A stretch of DNA of 64,000 nt from Halomonas sp. (GTDB taxonomy: Bacteria > Pseudomonadota > Gammaproteobacteria > Pseudomonadales > Halomonadaceae). Shown in pieces: positions 15,303 to 42,868 of this stretch. The notes under the pieces were generated by a model. It was not told the DNA's origin and did not search any database. It saw nothing but the letters and a program-made list of their open reading frames with translations. A program made the position numbers and the translations under genes. Each line of letters begins with the position of its first letter. Positions within the stretch are counted from its first letter, which is position 1. The stretch covers positions 10,727 through 74,726 of the forward strand of contig REBQ01000240.1 in assembly GCA_007692655.1 (NCBI GenBank), given 5' to 3'.

Positions 15303-15325
15303 CGTTTAGCTTAGGGAGCAAGGGG

Positions 15326-36330: not shown

Positions 36331-36362
36331 GAACTTTTCCTTCACAGCGTGTCTTAGTTAGT
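36331..36362 (+). promoter_or_regulatory. sigmaE/AlgU-type promoter (candidate sRNA-1)
   Basis: GAACTT-N15-TCTTA-GTTAGT; the spacer is one base shorter than the optimal 16. Confidence 0.55.
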
Positions 36363-36458
36363 ACAGGCAACATCGCGATAGCAGTCGCTAAAGTTGTTGT
36401 TCTGGCTCTATTGTTTTGATCCCTTGCTTCCGCTACTCATTGAGTAGCGGTTTTTTTT
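36363..36458 (+). ncRNA. Candidate small RNA 1 (about 96 nt)
   Basis: Plus-strand terminator CCGCTACTCA/TGAGTAGCGG + T8 in a region where all flanking genes are on the minus strand; 5' hairpin; internal TGATCCCTTGCTT at 36417-36429. Confidence 0.65.
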
Positions 36459-38657: not shown

Positions 38658-38731
38658 TCAAGGCCTAAGCCTATTTGCCCGATGCTCAAGGTGTCTCCAT
38701 AATGACGGCTTATGTTAGCGAGAGCCGGCCC

Positions 38732-39664
38732 ATGAGTAACACCGTATCATCACCATCAATAGCGTCTTCAGCCGACCGGTCAGGGAAACCGTTTAAAACG
38801 ATTGGTTTGATTGGTCGGTTGGGTAGCGACAAAGTGATCGATTCCCTTCAGCGCCTCGTTACCTATCTTGTTGCCCATGGCTATAACGTGTTGGTGGAAG
38901 ATCGCACGGCGACTGCTTTGCCTCACCATGGTCAGCCTGAAGCAAGCCGCCGCATGTTGGGTGAGCTGTGTGATCTGGTGATTGTCGTGGGCGGTGATGG
39001 CAGTTTGCTAGGCGCTGCGCGGGCGCTATGCCGAAGCGGAACGCTTATTTTAGGTGTCAATCGCGGTCGGCTCGGCTTTCTGACCGATATCTCGCCGGCA
39101 GAGCTTGAAACCCGGGTAGGGGAGGTTCTGGCAGGAGAGTTCGAAATTGAACAGCGCTTCTTGCTCGACACTGTGCTGTACCGCAACGGCGTAGCAGTGG
39201 GCAATGGTGATGCCTTGAATGAAATTGTGCTGCATCCAGGTAAAGCGGTGCGCATGATTGAGTTTGAGCTGTTTATTGATGGTCAATTTGTTTACAGCCA
39301 GCGTAGTGACGGTTTAATTATTGCCACCCCTACCGGTTCTACCGCCTATGCACTCTCCGGCGGTGGTCCGATTATGCATCCCAAACTGGATGTCGTGACG
39401 CTGGTGCCGATGTTTCCTCACACCCTGTCAAGTCGGCCGATTGTCATTGATGCCGCCAGCGAAATTCGTATTCACATCGGTGAAACAAACCAGTCATATC
39501 CACATATCAGCTGCGATGGGCAGACCCGGGCAGTGGCGAAACCGAACGATGTTCTGGTGATTACCCGTAAGCCTGAGCGCGTCCAGTTAGTGCATCCTAT
39601 CGGCCATAATTTCTACGAAGTCCTACGCAGCAAGTTAGGCTGGAGCCATCGGTTGGGAGACTGA
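38732..39664 (+). CDS. nadK: NAD(+) kinase
   Basis: GGDGSLL, GVNRGRLGFLTD, LNE, DGLIIATPTGSTAYALSGGGP. Start position is uncertain. Confidence 0.94.
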   Translation: MSNTVSSPSIASSADRSGKPFKTIGLIGRLGSDKVIDSLQRLVTYLVAHGYNVLVEDRTATALPHHGQPEASRRMLGELCDLVIVVGGDGSLLGAARALCRSGTLILGVNRGRLGFLTDISPAELETRVGEVLAGEFEIEQRFLLDTVLYRNGVAVGNGDALNEIVLHPGKAVRMIEFELFIDGQFVYSQRSDGLIIATPTGSTAYALSGGGPIMHPKLDVVTLVPMFPHTLSSRPIVIDAASEIRIHIGETNQSYPHISCDGQTRAVAKPNDVLVITRKPERVQLVHPIGHNFYEVLRSKLGWSHRLGD

Positions 39665-39666
39665 GT

Positions 39667-40653
39667 ATGGAGGGGTACGACCTAATTGGTGATGTGCACG
39701 GCTGCGGTGCCACGCTGGCTTCACTGCTTGAAAAGCTGGGCTACCATCAACGAGGTGGGGTTTATCGCCATCCGCGCCGTAAAGTTATTTTTCTCGGCGA
39801 TCTGATTGATCGCGGGCCGCGAATACGCTTAGCCGTTACCATTGCGCGGCGGATGGTAGAGGAGGGTGAGGCGTATATCGTGATGGGCAATCATGAATAT
39901 AACGCCCTTGCTTATACCCACCCTGCACCGGCGGGGAGCCATAAACGTTGGCTACGGGAGCATACTCCGCGGCATAACCGCATTATCCAAGATACGCTAG
40001 ATCAGTATCGGGATTACACCAACGAGTGGGAAGATACTCTGGCGTGGTTTAAAACCATTCCGCTATGCTTGGAGATAGAGAGTATTCGCGTCGTGCATGC
40101 CTGCTGGGACGACCAACTGATTAAGGAATTTACCCAGCGTCGACCTGATCGCTGTATGGACTCGCAATTTCTGGTCGAGTCGACCGATCCGTCTACTCAA
40201 GCGTTTCGGATTTTAGATCGTCTAACCCGAGGGCCGCATGTCTCACTGCCTCAAGGCATTGCCATCCATTCTGGTGATGGTTTTACGCGACAGAGTTTTC
40301 GGGCGCATTTTTGGGCTCAAGCCCCCCAGCAGTGGGGAGATGTTGTTTTTCAACCCGATAATCTGCCTGGAGATCTTGAATCCCGCGAACTGACCAGTGA
40401 AGAGCGTCAGAAGCTTAGCTACTATGGGCCCGAGCAGCCGCCCCTTTTTATTGGACACTACTGGTGCGAAGGCATACCCGCGTTGCCTGCCAGCAACATT
40501 GCTTGCTTGGACTATAGCGCCGTAAAGTACGGACGTTTAGTGGCTTACCGTTGGAGTGGAGAAGCGGCTTTGAATGCCGATCATTTTGTCTGGATCAAGG
40601 TGCCAAAAGAGGAGCGGGCGTTGCCTAAGCCCTGGGAAATTGACTTTGATTAG
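39667..40653 (+). CDS. Metallophosphoesterase (ApaH/PPP-like)
   Basis: GDVHG, GDLIDRG, GNHE, VHA and GHYW. Confidence 0.88.
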   Translation: MEGYDLIGDVHGCGATLASLLEKLGYHQRGGVYRHPRRKVIFLGDLIDRGPRIRLAVTIARRMVEEGEAYIVMGNHEYNALAYTHPAPAGSHKRWLREHTPRHNRIIQDTLDQYRDYTNEWEDTLAWFKTIPLCLEIESIRVVHACWDDQLIKEFTQRRPDRCMDSQFLVESTDPSTQAFRILDRLTRGPHVSLPQGIAIHSGDGFTRQSFRAHFWAQAPQQWGDVVFQPDNLPGDLESRELTSEERQKLSYYGPEQPPLFIGHYWCEGIPALPASNIACLDYSAVKYGRLVAYRWSGEAALNADHFVWIKVPKEERALPKPWEIDFD

Positions 40654-40702
40654 CGGTTTTTATCAATTTTACATAAAATCACACAATTTTTTCAAAACAG
40701 CT

Positions 40703-40735
40703 GAACTAACCCTGCTGTCGGCTATCAGAGTAAGT
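40703..40735 (+). promoter_or_regulatory. sigmaE/AlgU-type promoter (candidate sRNA-2)
   Basis: GAACTA-N16-TCAGA-GTAAGT, near-consensus with optimal spacing. Confidence 0.7.
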
Positions 40736-40794
40736 GTTCCCTTGAATGATCCCTTGCTTTTATTCTCCGGCGGTCCCTACCGCCGGTTTTTTTT
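40736..40794 (+). ncRNA. Candidate small RNA 2 (about 59 nt)
   Basis: GTTCCCTTGAATGATCCCTTGCTTTTATTCT followed by terminator CCGGCGGT-CCCT-ACCGCCGG-T8; shares 13 nt with sRNA-1. Confidence 0.7.
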
Positions 40795-40892
40795 GCCTGT
40801 CTGGTGGCGGCTGCATAGCTATTCTTATGTAGGCATTCAATACCCACCCGCTGTGGCTACTGTGCCGCTAGCGCACTGATTAGAGAGACGTT

Positions 40893-41744
40893 ATGCATCC
40901 AGTGATGCTTCTGCCCGATCACGCGGATACAAGCGAATTGCGCAAAGCGCTTTGGCATTTTCGCATTGGTCACCGCATTACCGACGAAGCTGATGGTCAA
41001 CTCATTTGGATTGCTGACCCGCGCCAGCGTGATGAACTCATTGCGCTGGTAGAGCGCTGGAAACGCGGTGAACCTTTGGTGCTTCAACAACCCATGAAGC
41101 GTTCACGCACTATGACCACCTCGTTGGCATCGCTTCGTCAAGTGCCCATCACGGCAATGATGATTGTGATTAGCCTAGCAGTGTTTGCGCTGATCGGCGT
41201 TTTTGGCGACTTGTTAATTGTTACCTTAACCATCGTGCCCATAGGCGTTGCTGGTGGCGAACTGGTGTATGGCACGCTCTATCAAACGGTGGCCTCCGGC
41301 CAGGTGTGGCGCCTGCTGTCGCCTGCCTTCCTGCACTTCGGCTGGATGCATTTGATTTTTAATCTGATGTGGGTTTGGTATTTCGGCAGACAAATTGAAG
41401 CGTTGCAGGGCAGTCGCACCATGTTTGTACTCCTTATGGTGGCCGGCATTGGTGCAAACGTTGCTCAATATATGACGGGTACTGTGCTATTTGGTGGGAT
41501 GTCTGGGGTTGTATACGCTTTGCTAGCCCACGTTTGGTTAATGTCACGGCGAGTACCACACAGCGGTTTCTTCGTGCCGCAAATGCTGGTGGTATTTATG
41601 CTGGGATGGTTGGTGTTTGCCATGACGGATATGGCAGGCAGCGTTGGTTTTGGTAATGTCGCCAATGAGGCGCATTTGGGAGGGCTGCTCGTGGGGCTAG
41701 TCACGGGCTGGTATTATTCATCACGCCGTTTGAAAAACCGTTAA
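40893..41744 (+). CDS. Rhomboid family serine protease (GlpG-like)
   Basis: WRLLSPAFLHFGWMHLIFN, GGMSGVVY (catalytic Ser), NEAHLGGL (catalytic His). Confidence 0.9.
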   Translation: MHPVMLLPDHADTSELRKALWHFRIGHRITDEADGQLIWIADPRQRDELIALVERWKRGEPLVLQQPMKRSRTMTTSLASLRQVPITAMMIVISLAVFALIGVFGDLLIVTLTIVPIGVAGGELVYGTLYQTVASGQVWRLLSPAFLHFGWMHLIFNLMWVWYFGRQIEALQGSRTMFVLLMVAGIGANVAQYMTGTVLFGGMSGVVYALLAHVWLMSRRVPHSGFFVPQMLVVFMLGWLVFAMTDMAGSVGFGNVANEAHLGGLLVGLVTGWYYSSRRLKNR

Positions 41745-41754
41745 GAGGCCTGCA

Positions 41755-42039
41755 ATGAGTGAAATGACATTCGAAAAAATGATCAATCAAATGACGCCAG
41801 CGATTTATGAGAGCCTCAAGCAGGCTGTATCGCTGCGCAAATGGCCTGACGGGCGTCGCTTAACGCCAGAGCAAACCGAACTCTGCTTGGAAGCGGTGAT
41901 GCGCTATGAAGCGGAGAATAATGTGCCAGAGGAAACCCGTGTGGGTTACCTAGAGCAGCGTACTTGCGGTGCTAACGCGAGCGGGGCCAATGTGTCACCA
42001 GAAATGGCCGGGTTAGCACGGGATGCCTCGAGTGACTGA
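41755..42039 (+). CDS. YeaC (DUF1315) family protein
   Basis: MTPAIYESLKQAVSLRKWPDGRRLTPEQTELCLEAV. Confidence 0.85.
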   Translation: MSEMTFEKMINQMTPAIYESLKQAVSLRKWPDGRRLTPEQTELCLEAVMRYEAENNVPEETRVGYLEQRTCGANASGANVSPEMAGLARDASSD

Positions 42040-42868
42040 AACCTTAGCACAAGGTTGTTTAAGCAAAATGGCGGCGACGCTACCTAGCCGCCAAGATGGG
42101 CAGGTGGTTTACCATTTACGCGCTGGGGAGCAACAGATTGCGCTTAATGAGCGTATTGGTGAGCCCCTTAGTCTGCGCTGGACGGGCGCTATTGCATGTA
42201 CACACTGCGGGCGGGCAACCAAAAAGAGCTTTGCCCAAGGTCATTGTTACCCGTGTTTCAAACGGCTAGCCCAGTGTGACACCTGCATCATGAAGCCGGA
42301 AACCTGTCATTTTTTTCAAGGCACCTGTCGCGAGCCAGAGTGGGGGGAGCGGCACTGCTTTCAACCGCATGTGGTGTATCTGGCAAACTCTTCGGGGCTG
42401 AAAGTCGGCATTACGCGCAAAACCCAAATGCCGACCCGCTGGTTGGATCAAGGTGCGATCCAAGCACTACCGATTCTGGAAGTGAATACGCGTCAACAGT
42501 CTGGTTTCGTTGAAATGCTGTTTAAAGAGCAGGTGGCAGACCGAACTAACTGGCGAACGATGCTGAAGGGCAGTGTTGAAAAGATAGATTTAATCGCTGA
42601 GCGCGATCGTTTACTGAGCGTATTGGCCGATGGTTTAAACCAGTTACGGGATACCCACGGCAGTGATGCTATTCGTACCCTAGAGGAGCCTGCGCAACAT
42701 TTTCACTACCCTGTCAGCGTCTTTCCAAATAAAGTGGTATCGCACAATTTTGATAAGCAGGCGCTGGTTGAGGGCGTACTGCTGGGCATTAAGGGGCAGT
42801 ATTTAATGTTTGATAACGGAGTAATTAATCTTCGTAAATTCACAGGTTACGAAATCCAACTGAGCTAA
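42023..42868 (+). CDS. DUF2797 family protein
   Basis: CTHCGRATKKSFAQGHCYPC...CDTCIMKPETCH...KVGITR...WLDQGA...GIKGQYL. Confidence 0.85.
   Translation: MPRVTETLAQGCLSKMAATLPSRQDGQVVYHLRAGEQQIALNERIGEPLSLRWTGAIACTHCGRATKKSFAQGHCYPCFKRLAQCDTCIMKPETCHFFQGTCREPEWGERHCFQPHVVYLANSSGLKVGITRKTQMPTRWLDQGAIQALPILEVNTRQQSGFVEMLFKEQVADRTNWRTMLKGSVEKIDLIAERDRLLSVLADGLNQLRDTHGSDAIRTLEEPAQHFHYPVSVFPNKVVSHNFDKQALVEGVLLGIKGQYLMFDNGVINLRKFTGYEIQLS

What the first reader, a model, noticed from the sequence alone, without database searches (positions are those of the whole stretch)
40703..40794. sRNA-2: about 59-nt RNA with a doubled TCCCTTG seed inside the nadK to DUF2797 gene run
Seen: a near-consensus sigmaE promoter sits 50 nt after the phosphoesterase stop. 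It is followed by GTTCCCTTGAAT-GATCCCTTGCTT (two TCCCTTG copies, 12-nt period) and a terminator that would also cut the upstream mRNA off from the rhomboid gene. Inference: an independently transcribed, or 3'UTR-overlapping, anti-Shine-Dalgarno-type sRNA with two seeds.
Basis: partly seen in the sequence, partly recalled or inferred. Interest (0 to 1): 0.72.

Follow-up and report, generated by a model that had tools for sequence, protein, structure and literature searches.

The report
Envelope-stress small RNA of Halomonadaceae
A roughly 59-nt small regulatory RNA gene sits between two conserved genes; it has an envelope-stress (sigmaE-type) promoter and a 23-nt 5' end that is identical in over 100 Halomonas-family species, and it is a well-supported but so far undescribed member of a familiar class.

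Summary
TGAACTA-N16-TCAGA lies 50 nt after the phosphoesterase stop. Six nt further on comes GTTCCCTTGAATGATCCCTTGCT, which holds two TCCCTTG copies 12 nt apart. An 8-bp GC hairpin and T8 follow.

Comparative data show a real gene.
- The 22-mer core is exact in at least 120 Halomonadaceae species.
- All 119 copies examined keep a sigmaE/AlgU-type promoter: GAACT, a variable spacer of 16 nt (114/119), TCNNA, and a fixed 6-nt gap.
- The genus's own rpoE carries the same promoter type.
- The terminator helix covaries.
- Paralogs and a sibling 4.3 kb upstream keep the seed but have different terminators.

In other families of the order, the phosphoesterase and rhomboid genes are 0-130 nt apart with no such element. 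It is therefore a Halomonadaceae-specific insertion. It matches no Rfam family, and I found no paper describing it.

Most likely it is a sigmaE-driven, Hfq-type RNA that pairs with ribosome-binding sites of exported-protein mRNAs. The best candidate is a di-haem cytochrome c peroxidase; one TonB receptor and porin paralogs are weaker. No usable RNA-seq exists, so the transcript ends and the sigmaE dependence are inferred. Target evidence is modest.

Verdict: a new member of a known kind, of moderate interest.

The parts
39667..40653 (+). Upstream gene: calcineurin-like metallophosphoesterase, directly after nadK (38675-39664).
   Evidence: Pfam PF00149. It lies directly upstream of the sRNA in 116/120 loci that carry the exact core.
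40669..40698 (+). Conserved upstream element: TTACAT (40669-74), TCACAC (40679-84), T6 (40687-92) and CAAAAC. It lies about -67 to -38 from the predicted start. It may be an activator site or an UP-like element.
   Evidence: Conserved in the genus alignment. A TACA-N-TTAC repeat is present in 81/119 family copies; the other genera have A/T tracts there. Its function was not tested.
40702..40708 (+). -35 element TGAACTA of a sigmaE/AlgU-type promoter.
   Evidence: TGAACT is invariant in 30 genus loci. GAACT is present in 108/119 family copies and AAACT in most of the rest.
40725..40729 (+). -10 element TCAGA, 16 nt after GAACTA.
   Evidence: All 119 copies have TCNNA: TCAGA 85, TCTGA 23, TCAAA 8, others 3. 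The spacer is 16 nt in 114/119 and its sequence varies.
40736..40794 (+). Predicted 59-nt sRNA, from the inferred start G40736 to the end of the U-run.
   Evidence: The start is inferred from the fixed 6-nt distance to the -10 element in 119/119 copies and from where invariance begins. The covariance model R1 scores 72.5 bits here. No RNA data define the ends.
40736..40749 (+). Seed 1: GUUCCCUUGAAUGA, with UCCCUUG at 40738-40744. It is unstructured.
   Evidence: Invariant in the exact-core set. It diverges in outlying genera, for example UUCCCUACAAUGA and UUUCCUCAUGA. It is predicted unpaired apart from a weak 4-bp hairpin.
40748..40759 (+). Seed 2: GAUCCCUUGCUU, with UCCCUUG at 40750-40756. 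It is probably the primary seed.
   Evidence: UGAUCCCU is the most constant piece across divergent genera. GAUCCCUUGCUU is shared with the sibling sRNA at 36331-36458.
40759..40766 (+). U/A-rich linker (UUUAUUCU) before the terminator; a possible Hfq-binding module.
   Evidence: It varies in length and sequence but stays U-rich in the family. Its indels are not multiples of three, which rules out coding.
40767..40794 (+). Intrinsic terminator: 8-bp stem 40767-40774/40779-40786, loop CCCT, then U8 at 40787-40794.
   Evidence: Found by the terminator scan. In the family alignment, 94.8% of cells are paired and 3 of 9 pairs show compensatory double changes; slid controls give 23-55% paired.
40893..41744 (+). 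Downstream gene: rhomboid protease (GlpG-like), followed by DUF1315 and DUF2797.
   Evidence: Pfam PF01694/PF16733. It lies directly downstream in 109/113 loci.
36331..36458 (+). Sibling sRNA ('sRNA-1'): GAACTT-N15-TCTTA promoter, an RNA of about 100 nt ending in GAUCCCUUGCUU plus its own terminator.
   Evidence: Sequence read. It is conserved in 19/22 same-genus genomes, with an invariant GATCCCTTGCTT, a conserved CGAACTTTT...GTCTGA promoter and a covarying terminator. It gives a weak R1 hit.

Best explanation
This is the gene for a small trans-acting regulatory RNA of about 59 nt.

Proposed mechanism: the envelope-stress sigma factor RpoE (sigmaE/AlgU) transcribes it from its own promoter, starting at about G40736. 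A strong intrinsic terminator ends the transcript. Its unstructured, C/U-rich 5' end carries two UCCCUUG seeds that resemble the 16S anti-Shine-Dalgarno sequence. These seeds pair with CAAGGG(A/G)-type ribosome-binding regions of mRNAs for exported or outer-membrane proteins. Pairing blocks translation, probably with help from Hfq, and so lowers the load on a stressed envelope. The terminator also separates the upstream nadK-phosphoesterase transcript from the rhomboid gene.

What is shown: the anatomy, its conservation, the promoter type, covariation in the terminator, and the lineage-specific insertion.

What is inferred: the transcription start, sigmaE dependence, Hfq involvement and the targets.
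For: - Conservation. The 23-nt 5' end is invariant in 30/30 genus loci. The 22-mer is exact in at least 120 species of 10 or more Halomonadaceae genera. R1 hits 96/121 family genomes in 20/25 genera and gives no strong hit in other families of the order.
- Promoter. All 119 copies have TCNNA. GAACT is present in 108, the spacer is 16 nt in 114 with variable sequence, and the gap to the invariant G is always 6 nt. The conserved promoter upstream of rpoE in this genus is CGGAACT[A/T]-N17-TCAGCC. Only 10 intergenic motif matches exist in the genome. Two of them precede the two sRNAs, and three precede genes for exported or membrane proteins (SIMPL/DUF541, a 17-kDa outer-membrane lipoprotein, and a small predicted membrane protein with no Pfam match).
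- RNA features. The terminator shows compensatory changes. The 5' 30 nt are unstructured. The linker is U-rich and followed by U8. An hfq gene is present.
- Modularity. Paralogs in two genera keep GUUCCCUUGAAUGAUCCCUU with unrelated terminators, and one has GGAACT-N16-TCTGA. The sibling sRNA-1 shares GAUCCCUUGCUU and is not followed by a same-strand gene.
- Origin. In 25 or more other families, the phosphoesterase-to-rhomboid gap is 0-130 nt with no such element.
- Targets.
  - Nine-nt seed complements at start regions number 27, against 16.2 +/- 4.8 for shuffles that preserve the core (2/150 reach the observed value).
  - The cytochrome c peroxidase RBS has 12-14 bp of complementarity. Eleven of 13 orthologs keep C[A/G][A/G]GGG, against 3% of all genes, and the variants remain wobble-compatible with the seed.
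  - One TonB-dependent receptor has a two-site interaction of -25.6 kcal/mol, rank 3 of 3494. Sites recur at other positions in its ortholog and paralogs.
  - Porin paralogs carry CAAGGGAUCAU or AAGGGAAC at the SD.
Against: - No transcript evidence. All public runs that hold the sequence are kept only as low-depth contigs that run into both flanks. The 5' end, size and abundance are therefore unverified.
- SigmaE dependence rests on promoter similarity alone.
- Target evidence is weak at the class level. TonB receptors (p=0.38) and chemoreceptors (p=0.34) are not enriched as groups. Enrichment is not significant at 8, 10 or 11 nt.
- The main conserved porin has only imperfect complementarity.
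- The lipoprotein target proposed earlier is not conserved in the nearest orthologs.
- Anti-SD-like seeds match SD regions easily, so false positives are expected.
- The ortholog statistics are not corrected for phylogeny.
Confidence: 0.72

Rival explanations
1. It is a cis-acting leader or attenuator. In this reading the sigmaE-type promoter drives the rhomboid-DUF1315-DUF2797 genes, and the 59-nt element is a terminator-containing leader whose read-through is regulated. The conserved 5' sequence would bind a factor acting in cis. This could coexist with a trans-acting role.
For: The rhomboid gene lies directly downstream on the same strand in 109/113 loci. One metatranscriptome contig starts exactly at the G of GTTCCC and continues 159 nt past the terminator (run X25).
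Against: - Paralogous copies and the sibling sRNA-1 keep the seed without a rhomboid gene downstream.
- The terminator is strong (8-bp stem with 7 GC pairs, then U8).
- No alternative anti-terminator structure is predicted or conserved.
- The single contig end coincides with the edge of the invariant block. Assembly graphs of mixed strains break at such edges, so this is weak evidence.
Confidence: 0.1
2. It is a 3'UTR-derived sRNA only. In this reading the RNA is cut from the nadK-phosphoesterase mRNA, and the GAACT/TCAGA match is not a working promoter.
For: The element begins 50-80 nt after the phosphoesterase stop on the same strand. In many genera the stop codon lies only about 35 nt upstream of the -35 element.
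Against: - Both promoter hexamers, the 16-nt spacing and the 6-nt gap are conserved in 119 copies while the spacer sequence varies freely. Only selection on a promoter explains this pattern.
- The same motif is conserved upstream of rpoE.
- At least one paralog elsewhere in the genome carries the same promoter.
Confidence: 0.07
3. It is a protein-binding RNA or a DNA operator. In this reading the tandem UCCCUUG repeats bind a protein, either as an RNA sponge or as a direct-repeat operator, and do not pair with mRNAs.
For: There are two identical heptamers 12 nt apart. The 23 nt are more uniformly conserved than many sRNA seeds. No target class is statistically enriched.
Against: - The repeats are tied to a promoter at fixed distance and to a terminator, and they move together as a transcription unit in paralogs.
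- In divergent genera, seed 1 changes while remaining C/U-rich and anti-SD-like.
- The RBS of the peroxidase orthologs keeps wobble-compatible complementarity.
Confidence: 0.05

Closest known systems
SigmaE-dependent Hfq sRNAs of Enterobacteriaceae: RybB, MicA and MicL (from my own knowledge and PMC1804206)
   Same: They share a sigmaE-type promoter, small size, a seed at or near the very 5' end, a rho-independent terminator with a U-tail, and a proposed role in lowering synthesis of outer-membrane or exported proteins during envelope stress. MicA's core AUCAUCCCUGAAU resembles UUCCCUUGAAU and AUGAUCCCUG in this family.
   Different: There is no detectable homology: no Rfam family matches even at E<=10. 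The genomic location differs. The seed is doubled. Targets are unverified, and the main porin shows only weak complementarity.
ErsA of Pseudomonas aeruginosa (sigma22/AlgU-dependent sRNA; PMC7565897, PMC13613067)
   Same: It occurs in the same GTDB order. The AlgU-type promoter GAACTT-N16/17-TCTGA matches the TCTGA/TCAGA variants seen here. It links envelope stress to post-transcriptional repression.
   Different: There is no sequence or Rfam match. ErsA is longer and sits at a different locus. The element studied here is absent from all sampled non-Halomonadaceae families.
Anti-SD-type sRNAs with repeated C/U-rich motifs: the Betaproteobacteria toxic sRNA (RF02278), the alphaproteobacterial 'cuckoo'/CcsR and AbcR RNAs, and staphylococcal RsaE/RNAIII UCCC motifs (from my own knowledge)
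   Same: They are short RNAs with two or more pyrimidine-rich motifs that mimic the 16S anti-SD and pair with ribosome-binding sites. A divergent family member gave sub-threshold hits to RF02278 and to the SorX, SorY and anti-hemB families.
   Different: All those hits are far below the gathering scores, for example 22 against 50 bits. In those families the motifs usually sit in hairpin loops. Here they are tandem in an unstructured 5' tail. The sigma factor and the taxon also differ.
Sibling sRNA pairs such as OmrA/OmrB and Qrr1-4 (from my own knowledge)
   Same: Several neighbouring or dispersed copies share an identical seed but differ elsewhere. Here these are sRNA-1 and sRNA-2, 4.3 kb apart, plus the extra copies in two genera.
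   Different: The siblings here share only 12 nt and have very different lengths (about 100 and 59 nt). Whether they are redundant is unknown.

Membership tests
Rfam sRNA families (MicA, RybB, MicL, VrrA, ErsA and all other 4227 models) | A covariance-model match at or above the family's gathering score. | tested here: not met
   cmscan at E<=10 on window 39000-42500 gave a best hit over the element of 20 bits against a gathering score of 45-48, to unrelated Burkholderia sRNAs. Divergent relatives and the sibling were also scanned, with the best hit at 28 against 49.5 bits.
SigmaE/AlgU (ECF02)-dependent promoters | A -35 GGAACTT, a 16-17 nt spacer, a -10 TCNNA (TCAAA/TCTGA), and a start 6-8 nt downstream. 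| tested here: met
   The window has TGAACTA-N16-TCAGA-N6-G. In 119 copies, TCNNA is present in 119/119, GAACT in 108, and a 16-nt spacer in 114. The genus's rpoE carries a conserved GGAACT[A/T]-N17-TCAGCC.
SigmaE/AlgU (ECF02)-dependent promoters | Transcription depends on RpoE in vivo or in vitro. | not testable with these tools
   No expression data under sigmaE induction are available. The rpoE gene is present (C239, 62% identical to E. coli RpoE).
Hfq-dependent trans-acting sRNAs | A rho-independent terminator with a U-tail of at least 6-7 U and a U/A-rich stretch just upstream; a single-stranded seed. | tested here: met
   The hairpin plus U8 was found. The linker is UUUAUUCU. The 5' 30 nt are unpaired in single-sequence and consensus folds. 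The terminator pairs covary.
Hfq-dependent trans-acting sRNAs | The RNA binds Hfq and depends on it for stability or function. | not testable with these tools
   Only the presence of hfq in the genome could be shown (C71, 88% identical to the E. coli N-terminal 68 aa).
Hfq-dependent trans-acting sRNAs | A discrete transcript of the predicted size exists. | tested here: inconclusive
   Runs that hold the sequence are stored as Logan contigs at 2-10x depth and extend into both flanks. One contig begins exactly at the G of GTTCCC, but this can be an assembly break.
Anti-SD-type (RBS-occluding) sRNAs | Seed complementarity to ribosome-binding sites of target mRNAs, conserved across species. | tested here: inconclusive
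   Nine-mer complements at start regions number 27 against 16.2 +/- 4.8 (2/150 shuffles). The peroxidase RBS motif is kept in 11/13 orthologs. No target class is enriched, and one proposed target is not conserved.

The most novel reading that the evidence does not exclude
The RNA is a sigmaE-controlled mimic of the 16S anti-Shine-Dalgarno tail. Its two tandem seeds act together and clamp a single mRNA at two sites, the SD region and the first codons. The two-site interaction predicted for one TonB-dependent receptor fits this idea. Alternatively, the two seeds give two overlapping target sets: UCCCUUGAAUGA for UCAUUCAAGGG sites and UCCCUUGCUU for AAGCAAGGG sites. In this reading the gene arose de novo by insertion into a tightly packed operon in the Halomonadaceae ancestor, and its first seed has been evolving since while the second stayed fixed.
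Probability: 0.25. Interest if true: 0.65.

Novelty: new member of a known kind. Interest (0 to 1): 0.5.

Why it matters
Native regulatory RNAs of Halomonadaceae appear to be undescribed: four literature searches found none. Several members of this group (Halomonas bluephagenesis, H. elongata, Chromohalobacter salexigens) are industrial chassis or models for osmoadaptation.

This would be a sigmaE-linked sRNA with an invariant seed that is present in most genera. It would be the first handle on post-transcriptional control of the envelope in this group. It could also explain variable expression of porins, receptors and periplasmic enzymes under process stress.

It also gives a clean case of an sRNA gene born inside a conserved operon. 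Outgroups show the empty site, and outlying genera show seed turnover.

Tried and rejected
- **RNA evidence.** Three run searches and four read-laying runs found only assembled contigs. Most are low-depth Halomonas-like sequence inside unrelated or metagenomic runs. No 5'-end information could be extracted.
- **Coding potential.** A 101-aa ORF (40574-40879) overlaps the element. I rejected it because the linker has indels that are not multiples of three and the spacer is variable.
- **Apparent homolog in another family.** The hit in G116 lies inside an esterase-like ORF: my own translation of the sequence gives PLNDPLL over the match. I treat it as a chance match.
- **Pattern scan hits.** The three most recurrent 'targets' in the pattern scan were the antisense strand of the sRNA gene itself.
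- **Whole-seed duplex ranking.** Ranking by duplex energy is dominated by GC-rich noise.
- **Class enrichment.** Tests for TonB receptors and chemoreceptors were negative.
- **Major porin.** The conserved major porin 5'UTR (GUUAAGGAAC) pairs only imperfectly.
- **Lipoprotein target.** The lipoprotein RBS at window 15316-15325 has good complementarity in this genome, but not in the two nearest orthologs.
- **Sigma70 promoter.** No sigma70-type promoter is predicted on the + strand in the gap.

Full report
**Observation**

- The metallophosphoesterase gene (Pfam PF00149) ends with TAG at 40651-40653.
- TGAACTA lies at 40702-40708 and TCAGA at 40725-40729, with 16 nt between GAACTA and TCAGA.
- Six nt after TCAGA, G40736 begins GTTCCCTTGAATGATCCCTTGCT.
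- The two TCCCTTG copies are at 40738 and 40750.
- The terminator scan finds an 8-bp stem with 7 GC pairs at 40767-40786, followed by T8.
- The 59-mer folds into the terminator hairpin plus one weak 6-bp helix between nt 9-14 and 25-30, which the family consensus fold does not retain. Its z-score is -4.7.

The heptamer alone is not over-represented in the window: 6 copies against 7.1 expected. Whether this is real had to be settled by conservation.

**Identity of the genome**

The window is contig C253 of a 4.05-Mb, 255-contig assembly. For example, G013:C4 has 368,476 bases, the same as Vreelandella titanicae BH1 contig00004. The organism is therefore a Vreelandella (Halomonas in the broad sense), family Halomonadaceae.

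**Conservation**

The intergenic region is found by BLAST in 36/36 same-genus genomes and in no other family sampled. An alignment of 30 loci shows the pattern expected of a promoter plus an RNA gene.
- TGAACT is invariant.
- The 16-nt spacer varies.
- TC[A/T]GA is invariant.
- Then come 23 invariant nt.
- The linker varies in length.
- The hairpin is conserved, followed by a T-run.

All are Halomonadaceae: Halomonas, Vreelandella, Billgrantia, Chromohalobacter, Kushneria, Salinicola, Modicisalibacter, Cobetia, Larsenimonas and Litchfieldella.

Promoter statistics over 119 copies:

| Feature | Result |
|---|---|
| -10 element | TCAGA 85, TCTGA 23, TCAAA 8, other TCNNA 3 |
| -35 element | GAACT in 108, AAACT in most of the rest |
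| Spacer | 16 nt in 114, 17 nt in 5 |
| Gap from -10 to the invariant G | always 6 nt |

These variants are the ones allowed by the E. coli sigmaE (GGAACTT-N16-TCAAA) and Pseudomonas AlgU (GAACTT-N16/17-TCTGA) consensus sequences, which I cite from my own knowledge.

**Sigma factor assignment**

The genome encodes an RpoE 62% identical to E. coli RpoE. The region upstream of rpoE has a block conserved across the genus: GTAAAAATCAATTG..CGGAACT[A/T], then a variable 17-nt spacer, then TCAGCC. This is the expected autoregulated promoter, and it is of the same type as the sRNA promoter.

Genome-wide, only 10 intergenic matches to GAACT[TA]-N15-17-TC[TAC][AGT]A exist. Two of them precede the two sRNA candidates in this window. 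Three precede genes for a SIMPL/DUF541 exported protein, a 17-kDa outer-membrane lipoprotein and a small predicted membrane protein with no Pfam match.

The motif is not numerically enriched against a reversed-motif control (9 against 18 genome-wide). The assignment therefore rests on conservation and context. Actual sigmaE dependence is inferred.

**RNA features**

In a 32-sequence family alignment, the terminator helix is 94.8% paired. Three of its nine pairs show changes on both sides (C-G to U-A inside the stem; U-A to C-G and A-U to G-C at its base). Slid controls give 23-55% paired. RNAalifold predicts only this helix and a trivial 4-bp hairpin in the invariant part. The seeds are therefore single-stranded.

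The linker is U-rich, and its length differences are not multiples of three. This rules out the overlapping 101-aa ORF listed. An hfq gene is present.

**Distribution and origin**

A covariance model (R1) gave the following.
- Strong hits only in the window's family among 301 genomes of the order: 9/9 family members and none of the others.
- Hits in 96/121 family genomes, in 20/25 genera.

Synteny is strict. The phosphoesterase lies directly upstream in 116/120 loci and the rhomboid gene directly downstream in 109/113.

In 25 or more other families of the order, the nadK-phosphoesterase-rhomboid-DUF1315-DUF2797 run is conserved. There the rhomboid gene starts 0-130 nt after the phosphoesterase stop, and nothing resembling the element is present. 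It shows a Halomonadaceae-specific insertion of about 150 nt into a tight gene pair.

Family genera without a strong hit fall into two groups.
- Some have the empty, tight site, with a 28-70 nt gap.
- Others have a diverged RNA in the same slot. One genus has GGAACTT-N16-TCAAA followed by GUAGUUUCCUCAUGAUGAUCCCUGCUU and a terminator. Another has a longer RNA with UGUUCCUCC before its terminator.

Intermediate variants include UUCCCUACAAUGAUCCCUUGG, GUUCCCUUGCAAUGAUCCCUGUU and ...GAUCCUUGCU. These show that UGAUCCCU in seed 2 is the most constant piece.

**Paralogs and the sibling**

One genus carries two further copies with the same first 20 nt but unrelated terminator hairpins. One of these copies has GGAACT-N16-TCTGA. 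Kushneria has a second copy with a longer linker.

In the window itself, 4.3 kb upstream (36331-36458), a second unit has a GAACTT-N15-TCTTA promoter, a structured body, and then GAUCCCUUGCUU directly before its own terminator. It is conserved in 19/22 same-genus genomes, with an invariant GATCCCTTGCTT and a covarying terminator. No same-strand gene follows it closely.

A seed kept across copies that differ everywhere else points to a trans-acting pairing function.

**Known families and literature**

No Rfam 15 family matches the element, its divergent relatives or the sibling at anything near the gathering scores. Four full-text searches found no description of native sRNAs in Halomonas or Chromohalobacter.

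**Expression**

Public runs that contain the sequence are stored only as assembled contigs. They have 2-10x word depth, belong to relatives or to metagenomes, and extend into both flanks. They say nothing about transcript ends.

One metatranscriptome contig begins exactly at the G of GTTCCC and reads 159 nt past the terminator. The same position is the edge of the invariant block, where mixed-strain assembly graphs break. I give this little weight.

**Targets**

I called 3494 non-overlapping ORFs in the genome and scored their start regions.
- Perfect 9-nt complements to the seed region occur at 27 genes, against 16.2 +/- 4.8 for shuffled seeds that keep both UCCCUU cores (2 of 150 shuffles reach 27). 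Results at 8, 10 and 11 nt are not significant.
- The strongest contiguous match at a credible start is a di-haem cytochrome c peroxidase (Pfam CCP_MauG): GUAAAAGCAAGGGA, 8 nt before the ATG.
- In 13 orthologs and paralogs from the genus, the flanks are unalignable. Even so, 11 keep C[A/G][A/G]GGG at the RBS, against 3% of all genes.
- The A-to-G variants remain paired to the seed's U residues by wobble.
- The C that pairs with the seed's G has no partner in the 16S tail (the 16S sequence is from my own knowledge, not checked here). That C is kept in 11/13, against 28% genome-wide. The binomial p is 4e-5, not corrected for phylogeny; I count about six independent lineages.
- One TonB-dependent receptor has a two-site interaction covering the SD and codons 1-4, at -25.6 kcal/mol, rank 3 of 3494. 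Its 93% ortholog keeps both sites. A 62% ortholog and a 40% paralog carry UCAUUCAA(U)GGG(G)A at the SD instead.
- Two porin paralogs carry CAAGGGAUCAU or AAGGGAAC at the SD, and these are conserved in a second species.
- In other genera, perfect 9-mers just before start codons include two further TonB receptors. Two more sit before ORFs I take to be curli genes (csgF-like, csgA/B-like) from their N-terminal sequences only.

Evidence against:
- TonB receptors (9 genes, p=0.38) and chemoreceptors (19 genes, p=0.34) are not enriched as classes.
- The major conserved porin pairs only imperfectly.

Target assignment is therefore suggestive, not established.

**Mechanism and rivals**

The best reading (about 0.7) is a sigmaE-transcribed, Hfq-type, RBS-occluding sRNA that reduces synthesis of exported and outer-membrane proteins under envelope stress.

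The main rival (about 0.1, and compatible with a dual role) is a sigmaE-driven leader of the rhomboid operon. A purely 3'UTR-processed origin (about 0.07) is hard to reconcile with the conserved promoter geometry. A protein-binding or operator role (about 0.05) is hard to reconcile with the behaviour of the paralogs and the wobble-compatible variation in the target. Chance is excluded.

**Comparison and verdict**

The element works like RybB/MicA/MicL, ErsA and the anti-SD-type C/U-rich sRNAs, but it fails the only membership test available, Rfam homology. It is best described as a new sRNA family of a known kind.

Its noteworthy features are the family-wide invariance of 23 nt, the tandem seeds, the sibling and paralog copies, and the clearly datable insertion into a conserved operon. 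Interest is moderate.

Noticed in passing
window 36331-36458 (+): A sibling sRNA candidate ('sRNA-1') has a GAACTT-N15-TCTTA promoter, a structured body of about 100 nt, and GAUCCCUUGCUU directly before its own terminator. It is conserved in 19/22 same-genus genomes in synteny with sRNA-2, and its terminator covaries (CGCTACTC to CGCTGCTC).
   Followed up: partly
window 40669-40698 (+): Upstream of the -35 element lie two TTACA-type half-sites with a 10-bp period, followed by a T-tract and CAAAAC. In the window the second half-site is TCACAC. The repeat is present in 81/119 family copies; other genera have A/T tracts there. It resembles OmpR/CpxR-type response-regulator boxes or an UP element (from memory only, not tested).
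   Followed up: partly
G000 C239:16525-16560, locus L151/L152: About 400 nt upstream of rpoE lies a genus-conserved GTAAAAATCAATTG..CGGAACT[A/T]-N17-TCAGCC. This is probably the autoregulated sigmaE promoter. About 60 nt downstream lies a second conserved block, GCTTGATGCGCTG..GAACGCGTAACACT.
   Followed up: partly
L335/L336 and L338/L339 (family genera g137 and g136), downstream of the phosphoesterase gene: The same intergenic slot holds different sigmaE-promoter RNAs in outlying genera. One is a short RNA with UUUCCUCAUGAUGAUCCCUG. The other is a longer one with UGUUCCUCC before its terminator. This suggests seed turnover at a fixed locus.
   Followed up: no
G000 C206:2971, C220:4221 (-), C114:33 (-): Other intergenic GAACTT-N16-TCCAA/TCATA motifs precede genes for a SIMPL/DUF541 exported protein, a 17-kDa common-antigen outer-membrane lipoprotein and a small predicted membrane protein with no Pfam match. 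These are candidate members of the sigmaE regulon.
   Followed up: partly
runs X1-X5 and X7 laid on window 40680-40830: Low-depth (3-5x) contigs that are 95-99% identical to this locus and extend into both flanks occur in runs labelled with several unrelated organisms. This looks like Halomonas-type contamination of those libraries rather than expression.
   Followed up: no
L295 (G116:C13:19038-19074): CCCTTGAATGATCCCTTGCTT occurs by chance inside an ORF in another family. My own translation gives PLNDPLL over the match, and the ORF looks like an alpha/beta-hydrolase (judged from the sequence only). It is a reminder that the doubled heptamer equals two Pro-Leu codon pairs.
   Followed up: yes
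G000 C200:475-2769 (-) and C44:5230-6219 (-): The genome has three Porin_4 paralogs, two of them in tandem. The widely conserved major porin (MKKTLLATAI...) has a strongly conserved 5'UTR (AACGATCGAAACAGTAAGCTAGTTAAGGAAC) across genera, which may itself be a regulatory leader.
   Followed up: no
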